This document shows positions 4,203 through 12,066 of a stretch of 64,000 nucleotides of DNA, in pieces. This DNA is from the human T2T-CHM13v2.0 reference genome, Homo sapiens. The stretch's first letter is position 1, and each line of letters starts with the position of its first letter. Position numbers and translations under genes: made by a program. The stretch lies in assembly GCF_009914755.1 (NCBI RefSeq), contig NC_060926.1. The stretch is one strand, 5' to 3'. The notes under the pieces were generated by a model. That model was not told the origin of the DNA. It searched no databases and saw only the letters and a program-made list of their open reading frames with translations.

Positions 4203-4413
4203 ATGTTTGCTGCTGCTACCAAGAGCTTTGTCAAGCAAGTTGGAGATGGAGGGAGATTAGTTCCTGTTCCAAGCCTCAGTGAAGCTGACAAATATCAACC
4301 TCTAAGTCTGGTGGTAAAAAAGAAGCGATGCTTTCTGTTTCCTAGATATAAATTTACTTCAACACCTTTTACACTGAAAGATATTCTCCTAGGAGACAGA
4401 GAAATTTCAGCTG
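4203..4413 (+). CDS. PJVK: PJVK (pejvakin, gasdermin family) first coding exon
   Basis: [42 protein letters not shown] gasdermin N-terminus; acceptor ttgcag| at 4180; donor G|gtaagt; 211 nt. Confidence 0.96.
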
Positions 4414-5108
4414 GTAAGTTTAAATGTTTGGGAGTGCCAACTCATTCATCTGTATTATTGGCAACCTAAACATAGGTCATATATGCTACTTATGTTAGTA
4501 ATACACATTTTCAATGATTAAAGCAACTTTTATTATGATGTTAGTGTAATAACATTATTAAGATTAACAATGCCAAAAGTTTGTATAATATCAAATCTCT
4601 TATTGGTCAAATAATTTTCAAATCTATCAATTATTTTATAAATTGTTTTAACCAAATCAACTTAGAATATGACATATTTCTTCATCTATAAAATGGGATA
4701 TTATTTGGGCTTACCTATGTTACATGGTCAAATGAGATGAAAATAATTTGTATTTATTTTTTACAATTCAATTATTACAATTGGTAAACTGAAATGTATT
4801 GAAGGGTAGGTTATATAATAAGCTGATATTTTGATGAGTTACTACTTATAAACGCTTATTTTTTCTTTTAATTGCCCGGTGGATCTTGATGCTTAAGAAG
4901 TTCTGTTGGCTGAATAGAAAATTTGAGTTCCTTTTAAGAATTCTGGCTATGTGTTTCTTTTTGTTGTAAGATTAATTGAATTACTACTTTAAGTCTTGGT
5001 GAGTCATGTTGCCTTTCTCTAACATTTGGGTATTTGAGTCTTCAATTGTTAATTTAACATGTTACTATATATAATCTACATAAGATAAAGATGTTTAAAA
5101 AATACTGA

Positions 5109-5327
<219 letters not shown>

Positions 5328-5507
5328 TAATAATCCTAATATATTTCAGTGTTTTCATTAAATACTTTAGGTATATAAACTTCATTACAAAGAATGCTTA
5401 AAACATTGAGGTTGTATTTTACTAGTGTAATTTGCTAGATATGTTTGAAATACATTGGTAGTATATCCAAACTTTGAATAAGGATAGATATCAAAAATCA
5501 CTTGGCT

Positions 5508-6446
5508 GAAGTCAGAGACCTCAGGGCCCCAGATCAAGGAGCTAACTGATGAAGAGGCAGAGAGGCTGCAGCTAGAGATTGACCAGAAATAGGATGCAGA
5601 GAATCATGAGGCCCAGATCAAGAATGGCAGCCTTGACTCCCCAGGGAAGCAGAAGACTGAGGAAGATGAGGAGGAGGAAGATGAGAAGGACAAAGGAAAA
5701 CTGAAGCCCAACCTAGGCAACAGGGCAGACCTGCCTGATTACCGCTGGACCAAGACCCTGTCGGAGCTGGACCTGGCGGTCCCTTTCTGTGTGGACTTCC
5801 AGCTGAAAGGGAAGGACGTGGTGGTGGCATCCAACGGCGGCACCTCCAGGTGGGGCTCAAGGGGCAGCCAGCGATCATCGATGGGGAGCTCTACAACGAA
5901 GTGAAGGCGGAGGAGAGCTCGTGGCTCATTGAGGACGGCAAGGTGGTGACTGTGCATCTGGAGAAGATCAAGAAGATGGAGTGGTGGAGCCGCTTGGTGT
6001 CCAGTGACCCTGAGATCAATACCAAGAAGATTAACCCTGAGAATTCCAAGCTGTCAGACCTGGACAGTGAGACTCACATCATGGTGGAAAAGACAATCTA
6101 TGACCAGTAACAGAAGTCCATGGGGCTGCCAACCTCAGACGAACAGAAGAAACAGGAGATTCTGAAGAAGTTCATGGATCAGCATCCGGAGATGGATTTT
6201 TCCAAGGCTAAATTCAACTAGCCCCTGTTTTTCCCTCCCTGAACTCTTGGGGCTGAGCTGCAACCACCCAACTTTCTTTCCCACTCTTCTCTGGGACTTG
6301 TGGGCCTCAGGGCTTGGGGCAGGCATGGGACTGGCCCAGGCACACAGGTCCCAGGGCATCAGGAGAAAGGCTGGGGCTTGGGGTCTTGTCCTCCCCAGTT
6401 GGCCTACTGTTACACATTAAAATGATTTGCCCAGCTAAAAAAAAAA
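5508..6446 (+). pseudogene. NUDCP2: 5'-truncated processed pseudogene of NUDC (probably NUDCP2) in PJVK intron 3
   Basis: Intronless NUDC-like sequence (GPQIKELTDEEAERLQLEID...[18 protein letters not shown]...MDFSKAKFN*), 3'UTR, ATTAAA 6416, poly(A); TSD aaaaatcacttggct 5493-5507 / aaaaaccacttggct 6447-6461; in-frame stops (~5590, 6108) and a frameshift (~5828). Confidence 0.93.
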
Positions 6447-6782
6447 AAAAACCACTTGGCTTAAACAAAACTTTTAATTGTTCCACAAAATTACTTTGGC
6501 TCTACACACATTTGCTTAATTATTAGATTTAAATAATACAGCAATCTGTCTGCAACAAATAGAGTCCCCTTCAACAGACTTTCAACAGACAGAGTGAAAC
6601 ATTCTGCATAAGCATGTTTTAAGAAAATAGAGAGGAGAGACAAATTATTACATTTCTTTTGGGTGTATTTTCTGACTATTAGGATTGCCTTGATTTACTA
6701 TTAGGTGAACTATGAATGAATAACACATGATAGCAAAAAATGTATTTGATTATGTGTAATTAGATGTTATAGAGTCTTGTGA

Positions 6783-7001
<219 letters not shown>

Positions 7002-7136
7002 TAAGTATTGAATTTCTAGTCAGGCTTGTGTATTTTGTGAAATGTTCTGATGAAAGAGCTGCAGTTGTATAGGATTTTGCACAGCAATGTCTGTTCTAGA
7101 ATATGAAAAAAAAAAACAAATCTTGGGATTCTAAAC

Positions 7137-8024
<888 letters not shown>

Positions 8025-8125
8025 TGAATTTATATTTTTATATTCAAATAGTTTTTCAAAGTTAATATTATCAATGGCCATACATGCTTTATTCAAGGTT
8101 AGTTAAATCCTTTAAAAAATATTAG

Positions 8126-8662
8126 CGGCAAGGTGCAGTGGATCATGCCTGTAATCCCAGTGCTTAGGAAGACTGAGATAGGAAGACAGCTTGGGACCAG
8201 GAGTTCAAGACCAACTTGAGCAAAATAATGAGACCTTGTCTCTACAAAAAATAAAAGAATTAGCTGGTTGTGGTGGCACATGCCTATAGTCCCAGCTACT
8301 CGGAAGGCTGAGGCAGGGGGCTGCCTGCGGGGTTTGGGTCATTGTCTTTTAGAATTTGGGAGGCTTTGAAAAGCCGTGCTTTTGTGCTGGGGAAGATGTA
8401 GCAGTCTCTTCTCCAAACCACCCATTTGCCTTCGGACTTCTCTGGGGCCAGCAGCCATCCAACTAGGGGCCCGGGGCCACGGGCTCAGCTGACGACCATG
8501 GGCTTCGCGTCCAACCAGCAGTTTGCAGGTTCGAGCTCAGGACTTGGCGGGGACACCTTAGGATGCAGGAGTGGCCAGGAGTTCAAGGTTACAGTAGGCT
8601 ATGATTGTGCCACTGCTCTCCAGCCTGGGTGACAGAGAGAGACCCTGTCTCTGAAAAAAAAA
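8126..8662 (+). mobile_element. AluJ interrupted by a ~250 bp foreign insert
   Basis: Alu up to ggctgaggcagg (8317), resuming at gccaggagttcaagg (~8574) and ending in poly(A). Confidence 0.88.
8320..8572 (+). pseudogene. Unprocessed LIN28A-like fragment (proximal promoter, exon 1 and start of intron 1)
   Basis: gggcccggggccacgggctcagctgacgaccATGGGCTTCGCGTCCAACCAGCAGTTTGCAG|gttcga encodes MGFASNQQFA, compared with LIN28A MGSVSNQQFA; upstream sequence matches the LIN28A 5'UTR as I recall it. Confidence 0.85.
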
Positions 8663-9301
8663 TTGGAAAAGTATCTGTGTTTAATTTTCAGCTCAATTAT
8701 GATATTGTTTATCTTTGTCATTCAGTGACACCTAATAATGACTTGATTGGATTAAAACCAATTGTTAGAAAGATAGGGTTCAAGGATAATCTTTTCAAGT
8801 CTTTGCAAATAAAAGTTATTTTCGCATATTCAGCTGCCTGTCAAATTCTGATTAACATTGGATCATTTTTGAGGCACAAACTGAAACATTTACTTGATTG
8901 TTAGCGATTGCTTTAGAAAGCTACTAAAAGCTCTGGAGGGCTTTGGAATGGTAGACAGGCTAGGCTGAAAACTTTAACTCTGGCACTGCTTTCTAAGATT
9001 TCCTGTTAAAAAAAAAAAAAGGCTTCTGCTCCAGAGCATTATGGTTGTGGTAGCACTAATCATGGGCTGTAATACCAAAGTAAGTGAAAAGTGCAGAGGT
9101 ATTTCCTAATATAGACCAGGAGTTTCTGTTGGACCAATTGGATCTCTGCTATAAAAAATGGTTTAATTCAAGCAGAATAATCCTTTACTTGGGAATTTTT
9201 TGTTTTGTTTTTGGTAGGATTATAGGAAATGTTTCATTTCTCCAAAAAGCTATCCTTACATGTTATGATCCTTAATTATGTTATTTATTTATTCAATATA
9301 G

Positions 9302-9448
<147 letters not shown>

Positions 9449-10169
9449 TGATTATATTTTTAAGGAGCATTCATTAGGGCATGTGCTCTCTCTCTCTCTT
9501 TTCTCTCATTTCTCGTGTCTAACAATTATAGAAGATGCTCTCAGCACTGTCAATCTTATGCTTTGGCAAAATAGCTGAGAAAGACCCTCCGTTCGCTGCT
9601 TCCCCATTCCACTTTTCTGCTTCTTGGTGAAGGTTGTAAACTCTCCACTACCCCATTTAAAATTATAAATAAGAGCTAAAATGCCATCTACTGACAAAGT
9701 ATTCCTTAGCTTACATGGGGAGATAATAAATGACCTTCTTATAGGTAGTTTTTGATGGTGGCAAACAGAGGAGTAGGTAGATAGTAGGATGCCTGAAGTG
9801 TTAGGATGCCCAAACCAGGGCCTCTAAAGACAGCTTTTCTTACTTCAGTTTTACTTATCATAGACCCAGCTTCCCCTTGCACTCTTCCTAAAAAATAACT
9901 TTAAAAAGTGAAAATACTTCCTCCAAAATTGTCACCTTGTATAATACCTAAGTGCAGCTCACTTTAGGTCTCTACATTTCACAGGTCTTTAAGGTCTGTT
10001 GGCCAACTGGAACAAGTCCAGGTGTAGCCCAAGGGATCAGGAAAGGCAGCCCCTAGCCATGGTAATTTACAAATGTTTTTAGACCTGTTCTTGTTCATTT
10101 CTGCAATTTTGTAGGAGGAGGGAATAGGGAGTCCAGAAACAAAACAAAACTACATGTTAAGTAAATTGT

Positions 10170-10462
10170 CTTTTTAAAAAATATTTTTAATTTTTGTGGC
10201 TATATAGTAGATTATATATATATTTATGTATGGGATACATGAGGTATTTTGATACGGGCATACAGTGCATAATAATCACATCATGGAAAATGGGGTATCC
10301 ATCCCCTCAAGCATTTATCCTTTGTGTTACAAACAATCCAATTATACTCTTTTAGTTATTTAAAAATGTACAAATTCTCAGTCTAAGATGGAGAAAAAAC
10401 TGTACAATTACATTATTTTGACTGTAGTCACCCTATTATGCTTCCAAATACTAGGTCTTATT
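10170..10462 (-). mobile_element. L1MA-type 3' end fragment
   Basis: ggggtatccatcccctcaagcatttatcctttgtgttacaaacaatccaattatactc, typical of the L1MA 3'UTR. Confidence 0.75.
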
Positions 10463-11114
10463 AAGTAAATTCTAATTGGATAACTTTAGGTTTTTACAGT
10501 TTTATTGATGGTTGGGAGGAATGTAAATGGACTGATATATCCACAAGAATTTAAAATATATATATAATTTGGACTTCCACTTCTAGGAATTTATCCTACA
10601 GATATATTTACACATATATGAAATGATATGAGTGCAAGTATATTCAGTCCTCAATAACAAGAGATTGGAAACAACATTAAGGAGACTAAATAATGGTGCA
10701 TCCTTGCAAGAGAATACTATGAAGCCAATAAGAATATAATACTTTTAATAGATATTTTTCAAGAGCTGAGTATAATATGTAACTATTTGGGCATAAATAA
10801 TTTTATACACATACATGTATATATGCATCTTTCTTTATGCTTATAAAATATATGGAGTATTTCTGGAAGCAAACATAAGAAACTTAAACCACGGGTGCCC
10901 CTAAGCCCCTGAGGTAGAAGACTGTGGCTGGATACAGGGTGGGCCAGAGACCTATTTGTCACTGTATCTCCTTTCTGTATGAATTTTGTACCATGTGAAT
11001 GTTACCTTTTCCAAAAGTATGTAAAAGTCAACTTTTAAAAACAATACAATGAATGATTTGTACTAGAATTCATCACCCCATCAAACAATAAAATATGAAT
11101 TATTCAAGTTATAA

Positions 11115-11664
<550 letters not shown>

Positions 11665-11773
11665 GCCAAATTATTTCATGACTAGTGGATTCACATATTT
11701 ATTAATGCTGTTTGCATTATGTATTTTTCATTTTCACTTCTAACACATTTCTTTTCTGTTTTTGTCCTTTTAG

Positions 11774-12066
11774 ATAGAAGAGTGATGGATGTCATTTCTC
11801 GTTCACAGCTTTACTTGGATGATCTTTTTTCTGACTACTATGACAAACCTCTCAGCATGACTGATATTTCACTCAAAGAAGGGACCCATATCCGAGTTAA
11901 CTTACTTAATCACAACATTCCCAAAGGGCCTTGCATACTCTGTGGAATGGGGAACTTCAAAAGGGAGACAGTTTATGGGTGCTTTCAGTGTTCTGTTGAT
12001 GGTCAGAAGTATGTGAGACTTCATGCAGTTCCTTGTTTTGATATTTGGCACAAGAGGATGAAATAA
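11774..12066 (+). CDS. PJVK: PJVK last coding exon (exon 7), Cys/His-rich zinc-binding C-terminus
   Basis: ttttag|AT AGA ... ATG AAA TAA; the six coding exons sum to 1059 nt = 352 aa + stop. Confidence 0.96.

What the first reader, a model, noticed from the sequence alone, without database searches (positions are those of the whole stretch)
11774..12066. Pejvakin's C-terminal domain looks like a piggyBac-transposase cysteine-rich domain
Seen: one terminal exon encodes LKEGTH294[15 protein letters not shown]309ILC312[13 protein letters not shown]325FQC328[11 protein letters not shown]339AVPC343FDIWH348KRMK*, giving eight potential Zn ligands at the extreme C-terminus. Established: PJVK lacks the gasdermin autoinhibitory domain. 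Many piggyBac-family transposases end in a cross-brace finger of pattern H..CxxC..RxETxYxCxxC..L(C/H)xxxCFxxYH (Pfam zf-Tnp_2). As I recall, PGBD4 reads RLSGRHF...TGRCKIC...[25 protein letters not shown]. Non-ligand residues also match (ETxYxC, VxL, VPCF[DE]I[WY]H, upstream GxH). Inference: a gasdermin duplicate may have swapped its inhibitory domain for a captured transposase 3' end, a gasdermin-transposase fusion I am not aware of being described. It would give a structural rationale for deafness variants at these cysteines.
Basis: partly seen in the sequence, partly recalled or inferred. Interest (0 to 1): 0.88.

Follow-up and report, generated by a model that had tools for sequence, protein, structure and literature searches.

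The report
Pejvakin's zinc finger resembles piggyBac transposase domain
The last exon of the human deafness gene PJVK encodes a two-zinc domain that looks like the C-terminal cysteine-rich domain of piggyBat/PGBD4-type transposases, which suggests that this gasdermin replaced its lost inhibitory domain with a piece of a transposon.

Summary
Window 11774-12066 encodes PJVK residues 256-352, with H294, C309, C312, C325, C328, H339, C343 and H348. All eight are invariant in 35 full-length vertebrate pejvakins.

- **Pfam:** the only hit for the human exon is zf-Tnp_2, and it is sub-threshold (16.4 bits against a cut-off of 24).
- **BLASTP:** against human PGBD4, E = 1e-5.
- **Profile-profile comparison:** PJVK against PGBD4-like CRDs gives 96% probability (score 46-51). 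Human PHD, C1 and FYVE controls give 1-5% (score 14-17). In 150 shuffles that kept the ligand columns fixed, none scored above 23.4.
- **Ligand pattern:** the solved piggyBat CRD (PDB 9C0F) has the same ligand order as PJVK (H,C,C,C,C,H,C,H; Cys3His + Cys2His2).

The fold is the C1-like piggyBat type, not the T. ni piggyBac type. The deafness variants H294D and C343S each hit one predicted zinc site.

Capture of a transposase 3' end by a GSDME duplicate in early vertebrates is inferred, not shown. My searches found no paper making this link.

The parts
11772..11773 (+). AG splice acceptor of the terminal exon (exon 7)
   Evidence: Sequence read; the exon start at 11774 comes from the supplied annotation.
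11774..12066 (+). Coding part of PJVK exon 7, residues 256-352 plus the TAA stop at 12064-12066
   Evidence: the spliced frame is open and gives 352 aa.
11776..11886 (+). Linker, residues 257-293. No detectable likeness to piggyBac transposases.
   Evidence: In an extended hhalign (115-aa PJVK segments against 170-aa piggyBac segments) only residues about 305-350 align with confidence.
11887..12051 (+). Two-zinc domain, H294 to H348: H-x14-CxxC-x12-CxxC-x10-H-x3-C-x4-H
   Evidence: All eight ligands are invariant in 35 of 35 pejvakins.
11917..12057 (+). Residues 304-350, the stretch that aligns to piggyBac CRDs with confidence (IPKGPC...WHKR)
   Evidence: hhalign query positions 20-66 of the 68-aa segment starting at T285. 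The Pfam zf-Tnp_2 match covers residues 301-348.
11887..11889 (+). H294 codon. Predicted ligand of the Cys2His2 site, together with C325 (11980-11982), C328 (11989-11991) and H348 (12049-12051).
   Evidence: Assigned from ligand order in the solved PiggyMac CRD (H701, C723, C726, H749; PMC8086355) and the piggyBat composition. Global hhalign pairs H294 with the RHF histidine. H294D is reported as likely pathogenic (PMC8775161).
11932..11943 (+). C309-x2-C312. Predicted ligands of the Cys3His site, together with H339 (12022-12024) and C343 (12034-12036).
   Evidence: Same reasoning as for H294. C343S is reported as pathogenic.
11959..11979 (+). K318-R-E-T-V-Y-G324, the loop that matches the piggyBac R-K-E-T-R-Y motif
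   Evidence: R319, T321, V322, Y323 and G324 are invariant, and E320 is conserved in at least 90% of 35 pejvakins. E320 is nearly invariant across 61 PJVK plus piggyBac rows. piggyBat R543 and E545 in this loop contact DNA bases (PMC11707139). G324W is a reported deafness variant.
4203..11238 (+). Coding exons 2-6, gasdermin pore-forming domain (context for the fusion)
   Evidence: PF04598 was found in 20 of 21 rows of A1; the 21st row is the C-terminal exon alone. No gasdermin C-terminal family was reported.

Best explanation
PJVK residues about 294-350 form a two-zinc, cross-braced domain. It is homologous to the C-terminal cysteine-rich DNA-binding domain (CRD) of piggyBat/PGBD4-type piggyBac transposases (Pfam zf-Tnp_2).

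Most likely origin (inferred): a duplicate of GSDME in an early vertebrate lost the exons for the autoinhibitory domain. It then gained a new terminal exon carrying the 3' end of a piggyBac-like transposase gene.

Predicted zinc sites (inferred from ligand order in solved relatives):
- Cys2His2 site: H294, C325, C328, H348.
- Cys3His site: C309, C312, H339, C343.

Most likely working (inferred): the domain is a folded zinc module that packs against the N-terminal gasdermin domain and is needed for pejvakin to work. Losing any ligand unfolds it and gives loss of function. Because C328 and C343 lie in different zinc sites, the published 'redox-sensor cysteines' are better read as zinc ligands, possibly forming a zinc-thiolate redox switch.
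For: Sequence evidence:
- Pfam reports only zf-Tnp_2 for the human exon, covering nearly the whole profile. It is seen in 15 of 21 pejvakins.
- BLASTP against human PGBD4 gives E 1e-5.
- hhalign gives 96.6% probability, E 6.5e-10. Against 119 CRDs it gives 95.9%.
- An HMM built from piggyBac CRDs alone hits 25 of 25 PJVK domains at 10.3-21.1 bits, E 1.6e-8 to 3.8e-5 per comparison.
- Shuffle controls: 150 shuffles that kept ligand columns fixed scored mean 13.2, maximum 23.4, against 49.9 for the real alignment.
- Family controls: PHD 3.7%, C1_1 1.0%, FYVE 5.1%.
- Across 61 aligned PJVK plus piggyBac rows, C309, C312, C325, C328, C343, F344 and H348 are invariant. R/K290, E320, V336, L338 and P342 are at least 90% conserved.
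- The nearest ESM Atlas clusters (score 0.94) carry PF13842 in 18% and 29% of their members.

Solved relatives:
- The piggyBat CRD in PDB 9C0F reads H-x17-CxxC-x12-CxxC-x4-H-x3-C-x4-H. Its authors report Cys3His1 plus Cys2His2 sites (PMC11707139). This is the same ligand identity and order as PJVK.

Fold:
- AF2 with a 61-row alignment gives pLDDT 80.9.
- ESMFold2, run without my alignment, folded the domain with zinc at pLDDT 80-88.

Genetics (PMC8775161 Table 3):
- 8 of 23 reported pathogenic variants lie in exon 7, including H294D, G324W, C343S and V330Lfs*7.

Origin:
- 106 of the 120 listed proteins carrying this type of CRD also carry the piggyBac core domain PF13843. The other 14 are fragments of 174 aa or fewer.

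Docking on the N-terminal domain:
- Complex prediction gives score 0.63 with best control 0.00.
- That mark was reached by 51 of 78 solved complexes and 2 of 108 mismatched pairs. On eukaryotes it was reached by 39 of 65 solved pairs with no like complex among older structures and by 2 of 126 unrelated pairs.
- The three runs agree in at least 91% of contacts, and the partner's pLDDT is at least 80.
- The job differs from the calibration because zinc rode along and the two chains are parts of one protein.
- Interface residues are 12-19, 77-79, 81, 121 and 163 on the N-domain, and 296, 298, 309, 312, 319, 321-323 and 339-343 on the zinc domain.
Against: - The Pfam match is below the curated cut-off (16.4 against 24 bits). 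It is weaker in other species (7.8-13.8 bits) and absent in 6 of 21.
- C1_2 reaches similar E-values (best 0.012) in 8 of 21, though over only about 26 residues. Two divergent unnamed PJVK-like proteins (P0139, P0140) hit C1_2 and not zf-Tnp_2.
- A scan of the human genome with PF13842 did not list the PJVK exon among its 12 matches. Matches at 19-24 bits in that scan were noise.
- A full phmmer pass over 1.84 billion proteins found no piggyBac protein at E<=0.001. It found 16 hits: 15 PJVK-like and 1 spurious.
- The PJVK profile against PDB sequences found only a 25-residue likeness to the ribosomal eL37e zinc knuckle (E 0.0095), not piggyBat.
- AF2 with PJVK rows only failed (pLDDT 40.8). 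The confident model used 45 piggyBac rows, so its fold match is partly circular.
- In a tree of 61 CRDs, PJVK sits on a branch of 5.6 changes per column and is not nested within the sampled piggyBac CRDs, so no donor lineage is shown.
- PJVK differs by a 6-residue insert between C328 and H339 and a 3-residue shorter H-to-C spacer.
- No likeness extends upstream of about residue 304, apart from a weak LRxxxH.
- No transposon ends were looked for.
Confidence: 0.78

Rival explanations
1. The PJVK finger is an independently evolved C1-like or treble-clef zinc domain. Its likeness to piggyBac CRDs is convergence on a common Cys/His scaffold.
For: - Both Pfam hits are sub-threshold, and C1_2 reaches E 0.012-0.13 in 8 of 21 pejvakins.
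- PJVK sits on a long branch in the tree.
- The ligand order H,C,C,C,C,H,C,x is also that of C1 domains (my recollection of the C1 motif). The C1-like topology of this CRD type is stated in PMC11707139 and PMC8086355.
Against: - The C1_2 match covers only CxxC...CxxC (profile 17-42 of 48), whereas zf-Tnp_2 covers 11-59 of 60.
- hhalign against human C1_1 gives 1.0% against 96% for piggyBac CRDs.
- With ligand columns fixed and the rest shuffled, the score falls from 49.9 to a mean of 13.2. Non-ligand residues therefore carry the match (RET.Y, V.L, PCF[DE].[WY]H).
- C1 domains are structural neighbours of the whole piggyBat CRD class, not of PJVK in particular.
Confidence: 0.12
2. The domains are homologous, but the source was not a transposon insertion. 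PJVK took the exon from another host gene, possibly an already domesticated PGBD gene, or piggyBac elements took the domain from a host gene.
For: - The tree does not nest PJVK inside the sampled transposase CRDs.
- No transposon ends were examined.
- Only the CRD core is recognisable.
Against: - 106 of 120 listed carriers of this CRD type also have the piggyBac catalytic core, and the rest are short fragments.
- The full-library search with the PJVK exon found no other cellular family.
- PJVK is reported only from vertebrates (PMC10155998), while the listed piggyBac CRDs come from arthropods and vertebrates among others.
Confidence: 0.07
3. Chance resemblance of a short cysteine-rich sequence, with no common origin and no shared fold.
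For: - The domain is short, with about 46 aligned residues.
- PF13842 matches of 19-24 bits occur by chance in the six-frame genome.
- HH-suite can overrate Cys-rich motifs (general knowledge).
Against: - 0 of 150 ligand-fixed shuffles and 0 of 150 full shuffles reach the real score.
- Three real zinc-finger families score 13.6-17.1 against 46-51.
- Several separate lines point to the same family: HMM, BLASTP, protein language model, and fold.
Confidence: 0.03

Closest known systems
piggyBat transposase CRD (Myotis lucifugus; PDB 9C0F; PMC11707139)
   Same: - Same ligand identity and order (H,C,C,C,C,H,C,H), giving Cys3His plus Cys2His2.
- Same 12-residue CxxC-to-CxxC spacing and the same terminal H-x3-C-x4-H.
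- Lies at the very C-terminus.
- Basic (PJVK domain pI about 9.3).
   Different: - In piggyBat the CRD follows a DDD transposase core and binds a palindrome in the transposon end as a dimer. In PJVK it follows a gasdermin pore-forming domain, and DNA binding is untested.
- PJVK has a 6-residue insert after C328 and a 3-residue shorter spacer after the first His.
Human PGBD4 and PGBD4-like piggyBac CRDs (Pfam zf-Tnp_2, PF13842)
   Same: - BLASTP E 1e-5 and hhalign 96%.
- Shared motifs: K/R-E-T-x-Y-x-C-x-x-C, V-x-L and V-P-C-F-[DE]-x-[WY]-H.
   Different: - PGBD4-like CRDs have Cys at the sixth ligand in 109 of 109 that fit the pattern, and mostly 17-18-residue spacers.
- PJVK does not reach the Pfam cut-off.
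PiggyMac CRD (Paramecium; PDB 6ZOP; PMC8086355)
   Same: - An upstream His plus seven Cys/His ligands.
- Cross-brace with C1-like topology, with experimentally assigned pairing H1,C4,C5,H8 and C2,C3,C6,C7. I used this pairing to assign the PJVK sites.
- A domesticated CRD for which its authors report no detectable DNA binding.
Host-transposase fusion genes such as PGBD3-CSB, SETMAR and GTF2IRD2
   Same: A transposase-derived domain is joined to host exons, here as a separate terminal exon with its own acceptor. The general model of capture by splicing is taken from passages of the Cosby et al. preprint.
   Different: - Only the small zinc domain is recognisable, not the catalytic core.
- The host partner is a pore-forming domain, not a transcription-factor module.
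- The event would date to early vertebrates, so no transposon ends are expected to survive.
GSDME and other canonical gasdermins
   Same: The N-terminal pore-forming domain (PF04598, E down to 2e-46 in pejvakins).
   Different: PJVK has no cleavable linker and no autoinhibitory domain (PMC8775161). The zinc domain stands in its place.
Protein kinase C-type C1 domains
   Different: - hhalign probability 1.0%.
- C1 domains have two Cys3His sites (PMC11707139).
- The spacing differs.

Membership tests
Pfam zf-Tnp_2 (PF13842), piggyBat/PGBD4-type CRD | Score at or above the curated gathering cut-off (24 bits) | tested here: not met
   Human exon: 16.4 bits, E 0.013. 15 of 21 pejvakins match, all below the cut-off.
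Pfam zf-Tnp_2 (PF13842), piggyBat/PGBD4-type CRD | Eight zinc ligands in the order H, CxxC, CxxC, C/H-x3-C, x4-H | tested here: met
   The PJVK pattern is compared with 109 of 119 PGBD4-like CRDs and with piggyBat. The ligands are invariant in 35 of 35 pejvakins.
Pfam zf-Tnp_2 (PF13842), piggyBat/PGBD4-type CRD | Family-specific non-ligand residues (E-T-x-Y before the second CxxC; V-x-L; P-C-F-[DE]-x-[YW]-H) | tested here: met
   F344 is invariant, and E320, V336, L338 and P342 are at least 90% conserved across 61 rows. The ligand-fixed shuffle control reached the real score 0 of 150 times.
Pfam zf-Tnp_2 (PF13842), piggyBat/PGBD4-type CRD | Significant profile-profile similarity, specific against other zinc fingers | tested here: met
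   96.6% and 95.9% probability, against 1.0-5.1% for C1_1, PHD and FYVE. RING and MYND controls could not be built.
Pfam zf-Tnp_2 (PF13842), piggyBat/PGBD4-type CRD | Fold of the solved piggyBat CRD (small three-stranded sheet, two cross-braced zinc ions) | tested here: inconclusive
Pfam zf-Tnp_2 (PF13842), piggyBat/PGBD4-type CRD | Binds two zinc ions; binds DNA of transposon ends | not testable with these tools
   Needs metal analysis and binding assays.
piggyBac transposase or PGBD protein | DDE_Tnp_1_7 catalytic core (PF13843) upstream of the CRD | tested here: not met
   Pejvakins carry PF04598 upstream and no PF13843. PJVK is not a PGBD protein; only its last domain is related.
C1 domain (PF00130 C1_1 / PF03107 C1_2) | Pfam cut-off and profile similarity | tested here: not met
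   C1_2 scores 13-15 bits against a cut-off of 26, over about 26 residues. C1_1 was not reported. hhalign gives 1.0%.
PHD finger (PF00628) | Pfam match or profile similarity | tested here: not met
   No Pfam hit at E<=10. hhalign gives 3.7% against 25 human PHD fingers.
Host-transposase fusion gene | Transposase-derived domain on its own exon, spliced to host exons in one frame | tested here: met
   The whole domain lies in terminal exon 7, which has an AG acceptor, and the spliced frame is open. This depends on accepting the homology.
Host-transposase fusion gene | Remnants of the transposon (inverted repeats, TTAA duplication, core-domain relics) around the captured exon | not tested
   Not looked for, and not expected to survive from early vertebrates. 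The upstream part of the exon shows no likeness.

The most novel reading that the evidence does not exclude
Pejvakin is a vertebrate-stem chimera of a gasdermin and a piggyBac transposase. The captured CRD took over the job of the lost autoinhibitory domain: it clamps the pore-forming domain through its Cys3His face. Oxidation of the zinc thiolates by peroxisomal ROS would release zinc and unclamp the protein. That would be a protease-independent, zinc-redox way of switching a gasdermin.
Probability: 0.2. Interest if true: 0.85.

Novelty: new member of a known kind. Interest (0 to 1): 0.66.

Why it matters
- **A structural template.** The zinc finger of a human deafness protein is described in print as a domain 'whose function is unknown' (PMC8775161). 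This reading gives it a family, a solved template (9C0F) and a testable two-site ligand map.
- **It widens the annotated motif.** The published zinc-binding motif spans residues 305-331 (PMC12605547). The domain proposed here spans 294-348.
- **It explains deafness variants.** H294D, G324W, C343S and the late truncation V330Lfs*7 all become understandable as disruptions of the zinc domain.
- **It reframes the redox-sensor result.** C328 and C343 have been described as redox-sensor cysteines. Here they are ligands of two different zinc sites.
- **It matters for gasdermin biology.** It suggests how a gasdermin without an inhibitory domain is kept in check.
- **It matters for transposon biology.** It would be an old capture of a piggyBac domain by a non-nuclear effector protein.

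Tried and rejected
- **PDB sequence searches.** The exon alone gave only eL37, E 0.32. The PJVK profile gave only a 25-residue eL37e zinc-knuckle likeness, E 0.0095. I treat this as a local CxxCG motif and did not pursue it.
- **Full-library phmmer.** It found no piggyBac protein at E<=0.001. One hit, P0142, is a bacterial Big_13 repeat protein matching 'FQCS.DG' and is spurious.
- **Human genome search with the 68-aa segment.** Only 4 candidates passed the first look. The 3 non-self ones are non-coding noise. PGBD4 was not picked up, so this was not an unbiased genome-wide test.
- **AF2 with PJVK rows only.** pLDDT was 40.8, so the model was unusable and was not searched.
- **Alignment A4 (full-length piggyBac rows).** It scattered the first 18 PJVK residues. 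It was not folded, and A5 replaced it.
- **RING and MYND controls.** I left these out.
- **FYVE control.** It rests on only 5 sequences, one of which (L087) runs past an exon end.
- **Rows dropped from controls.** Control rows with a stop, or with fewer than 40 residues (52 for FYVE), were dropped. This kept 25 of 30 PHD, 15 of 30 C1_1 and 5 of 20 FYVE loci.
- **Tree of 61 CRDs.** PJVK and piggyBac rows fall on two sides of one long branch, so the tree gives no donor and no direction.
- **Extended alignment upstream of the CRD.** Nothing was found.
- **Model coordinates.** They are not available in the script box, so zinc geometry was not measured.
- **Papers not held.** Defourny et al. 2019 and Cosby et al. 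2021 are not held. I used a review (PMC8147788) and the preprint's main text instead.

Full report
**1. The observation.**
Joining the annotated coding exons of PJVK gives an open 1059-nt frame and a 352-aa protein. The last exon follows an AG at 11772-11773 and ends in TAA at 12064-12066. From 11776 it encodes residues 257-352 (stored as P0001).

A word-indexed search gave 169 proteins at E<=0.01 among 185 candidates. The 120 listed that carry a name are pejvakins, from mammals to teleosts, lungfish and coelacanth. Their C-termini are nearly identical. The eight proposed ligands are invariant in 21 of 21 diverse sequences and in 35 of 35 full-length ones. H302 is N in many tetrapods and is therefore not a ligand. 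One frog 'pejvakin-like' protein (P0064) has Ser in place of C325.

**2. Sequence tests of the piggyBac idea.**
Against Pfam, the human exon reports one family only at E<=10. This is zf-Tnp_2 (PF13842), E 0.013, 16.4 bits, below the cut-off of 24. The match covers residues 301-348 against profile positions 11-59 of 60.

Among the 21 rows of A1, 15 match zf-Tnp_2 (best E 0.013). Eight match C1_2 (best E 0.012), but only over the CxxC...CxxC stretch. Eight match DUF4663, which lies in the N-terminal part.

I took human PGBD4 from the genome itself. BLASTP of the exon against it gives 29.3 bits, E 1e-5, 17 of 52 identities, aligning C309-H348 with the PGBD4 CRD.

A profile of 16 PJVK domains (A2) against 8 PGBD4-like CRDs (A3) gives hhalign probability 96.6%, E 6.5e-10, score 50.7, over 41 columns. 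A search with A3 then returned 706 proteins at E<=0.001 among 8000 scored, of which 120 were listed. Of those 120, 106 carry the piggyBac core domain PF13843, and the other 14 are fragments of 174 aa or fewer. Against 119 non-redundant CRDs from that set, the PJVK profile still gives 95.9%, score 45.8. An HMM of those CRDs alone hits 25 of 25 PJVK domains at 10.3-21.1 bits. By my arithmetic, the human value (E 9e-8 per comparison) would still be about 2e-3 over some 20,000 human proteins.

**3. Controls.**
I permuted the non-ligand columns of the piggyBac alignment while keeping the Cys/His columns fixed. This gave scores of mean 13.2, sd 3.1, maximum 23.4, against 49.9 for the real alignment. 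None of 150 shuffles reached it. Full permutation gave a mean of 11.3.

I also built profiles of real human zinc fingers from genome matches:
- PHD (25 of 30 loci kept): 3.7%, score 15.2.
- C1_1 (15 of 30 loci kept): 1.0%, score 13.6.
- FYVE (5 of 20 loci kept): 5.1%, score 17.1.

RING and MYND controls could not be built.

The protein language model search placed the domain nearest to clusters in which 18% and 29% of members carry PF13842 (score 0.94). The tool warns that the query's recognition value was below its mark, so I count this as weak support.

**4. Results that go against the idea.**
- PF13842 scanned over the human genome lists 12 matches, and the PJVK exon is not among them. Only PGBD4 and a chrX relic are real, and the matches at 19-24 bits are noise.
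- A full phmmer pass over 1.84 billion proteins gave 16 hits at E<=0.001, of which 15 are PJVK-like and one spurious. No piggyBac protein was among them.
- The PJVK profile against PDB sequences found only an eL37e zinc knuckle.
- Two divergent unnamed PJVK-like proteins (P0139, P0140) hit C1_2 but not zf-Tnp_2 in Pfam. The piggyBac-only HMMs nevertheless score them 13.9-21.6 bits.

**5. Structure.**
AF2 with PJVK rows only failed (pLDDT 40.8). With a 61-row alignment of 16 PJVK and 45 piggyBac CRD segments (A5) it gave pLDDT 80.9 and pTM 0.63. This is partly circular.

Foldseek against 350,542 PDB chains returned five rows. The top two are chains of 9C0F, the piggyBat transposase-DNA complex (probability 0.87 and 0.38; the second has rmsd 1.6 Å over 44 columns). 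The other three have probability 0.01.

9C0F was released in 2025. ESMFold2, which did not use my alignment, folded the domain with zinc at pLDDT 80-88.

**6. What the solved relatives say.**

From passages of PMC11707139:
- The piggyBat CRD is not homologous in fold to the T. ni CRD.
- It has a three-stranded sheet and two cross-braced zinc ions, with Cys3His1 and Cys2His2 ligands. That is five Cys and three His, as in PJVK.
- It resembles C1, ZNHIT2 and MetAP1 fingers.
- PGBD2, PGBD3 and PGBD4 probably share the fold.
- R543 and E545 in the loop before the second CxxC contact DNA bases. By alignment these correspond to PJVK K318 and E320.

PMC8086355 (passages) gives the ligand pairing in the PiggyMac CRD as H701, C723, C726, H749 and C712, C715, C737, C745. 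Carried over by ligand order, PJVK would bind one zinc through H294, C325, C328 and H348, and the other through C309, C312, H339 and C343. This assignment is an inference.

Neither paper mentions pejvakin or gasdermin.

**7. Genetics and function.**
[quoted passage not shown] It lists 23 pathogenic variants, 8 of them in exon 7: H294Ifs*43, H294D, N303del, C312Wfs*19, F317Sfs*20, G324W, V330Lfs*7 and C343S. Of the four that keep the frame, two hit predicted ligands, one in each site.

[quoted passage not shown] 2019, which I could not read. In my reading these two cysteines sit in different zinc sites. Mutating them would therefore unfold the domain.

The older annotation gives a zinc-binding motif at residues 305-331 (PMC12605547, passage).

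**8. Contact with the gasdermin domain.**
Complex prediction was run on residues 1-250 and 285-352 of a 352-aa pejvakin (P0009) with two zinc ions. It gave score 0.63 with best control 0.00.

That mark was reached by 51 of 78 solved complexes and 2 of 108 mismatched pairs. On eukaryotes it was reached by 39 of 65 solved pairs with no like complex among older structures, and by 2 of 126 unrelated pairs. The three runs agree in at least 91% of contacts, and the partner's pLDDT is at least 80.

The job differs from the calibration, because zinc rode along and the two chains are parts of one protein. The model supports binding but does not show it.

The interface uses residues 12-19, 77-79, 81, 121 and 163 of the N-domain. 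On the zinc domain it uses 296, 298, 309, 312, 319, 321-323 and 339-343. Of the N-domain residues, eleven (12, 13, 19, 77-79, 81, 121, 163 invariant; 14, 15, 17, 18 at least 90% conserved) are listed, though the whole protein is highly conserved. Whether this contact restrains the N-domain is my inference.

**9. Origin.**
[quoted passage not shown] It does not say where the new last exon came from.

The whole zinc domain lies in that terminal exon. The CRD type is otherwise found behind piggyBac cores. Capture of a transposase 3' end is therefore the simplest account.

It is not shown, for three reasons:
- The part of the exon before residue 304 has no likeness to piggyBac.
- The tree gives no donor lineage.
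- Transposon ends were not sought.

**10. Novelty.**
The following searches found no paper linking the two:
- 'pejvakin' + 'piggyBac': 2 papers, both unrelated.
- 'PJVK' + 'transposase': 7 papers. I read passages of two, and the others I judged from the search listing only.
- 'pejvakin' + 'zinc finger' + 'gasdermin': 24 papers, of which I opened one.
- 'zf-Tnp_2'/'PF13842': 3 papers.
- A broad transposon search.

The main text of the Cosby et al. preprint does not mention PJVK, and its supplements are closed.

The zinc finger itself is known. Its family, fold template, full extent and likely origin appear to be new.

Noticed in passing
L002 (G000:C23:141652214-141655345), ORF 1282-1650: A 122-aa open frame on chrX keeps a PGBD4-like CRD with all Cys ligands. 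The upstream RHF histidine is replaced (RYF) and no transposase core is in frame. It looks like a relic copy of a PGBD4-like element.
   Followed up: partly
L003-L008 (human genome matches to PF13842): Matches of 19.5-24 bits to zf-Tnp_2 in the six-frame human genome are non-coding noise, including one at the curated cut-off of 24 bits. One lies in a low-complexity repeat (L004).
   Followed up: yes
P0064 (frog 'pejvakin-like', 226 aa): A second pejvakin-like protein in Hyla has Ser in place of the ligand C325, along with other changes. It may be a decaying paralogue.
   Followed up: no
P0074 (1169 aa) and P0137 (233 aa): These are gene models in which the pejvakin C-terminus is joined to unrelated parts. 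P0074 carries extra Pfam families and runs past the normal stop. P0137 has a cysteine-rich secreted-looking N-terminus. Both are probably annotation fusions.
   Followed up: no
window 11917-11961 (residues 304-318): The first zinc knuckle (N-I-P-K-G-P-C-x-L-C-G-M-G) resembles the zinc knuckle of archaeal ribosomal protein eL37e (K-G-Y-C-A-A-C-G-F-G). The profile search gave E 0.0095 over 25 residues. I treat it as a local motif likeness.
   Followed up: partly
P0142 (1756 aa, bacterial): A bacterial Ig-like (Big_13) repeat protein reaches E 7.6e-6 against the PJVK exon through a repeated 'FQCSLDG' motif. This is a spurious repeat-driven hit.
   Followed up: yes
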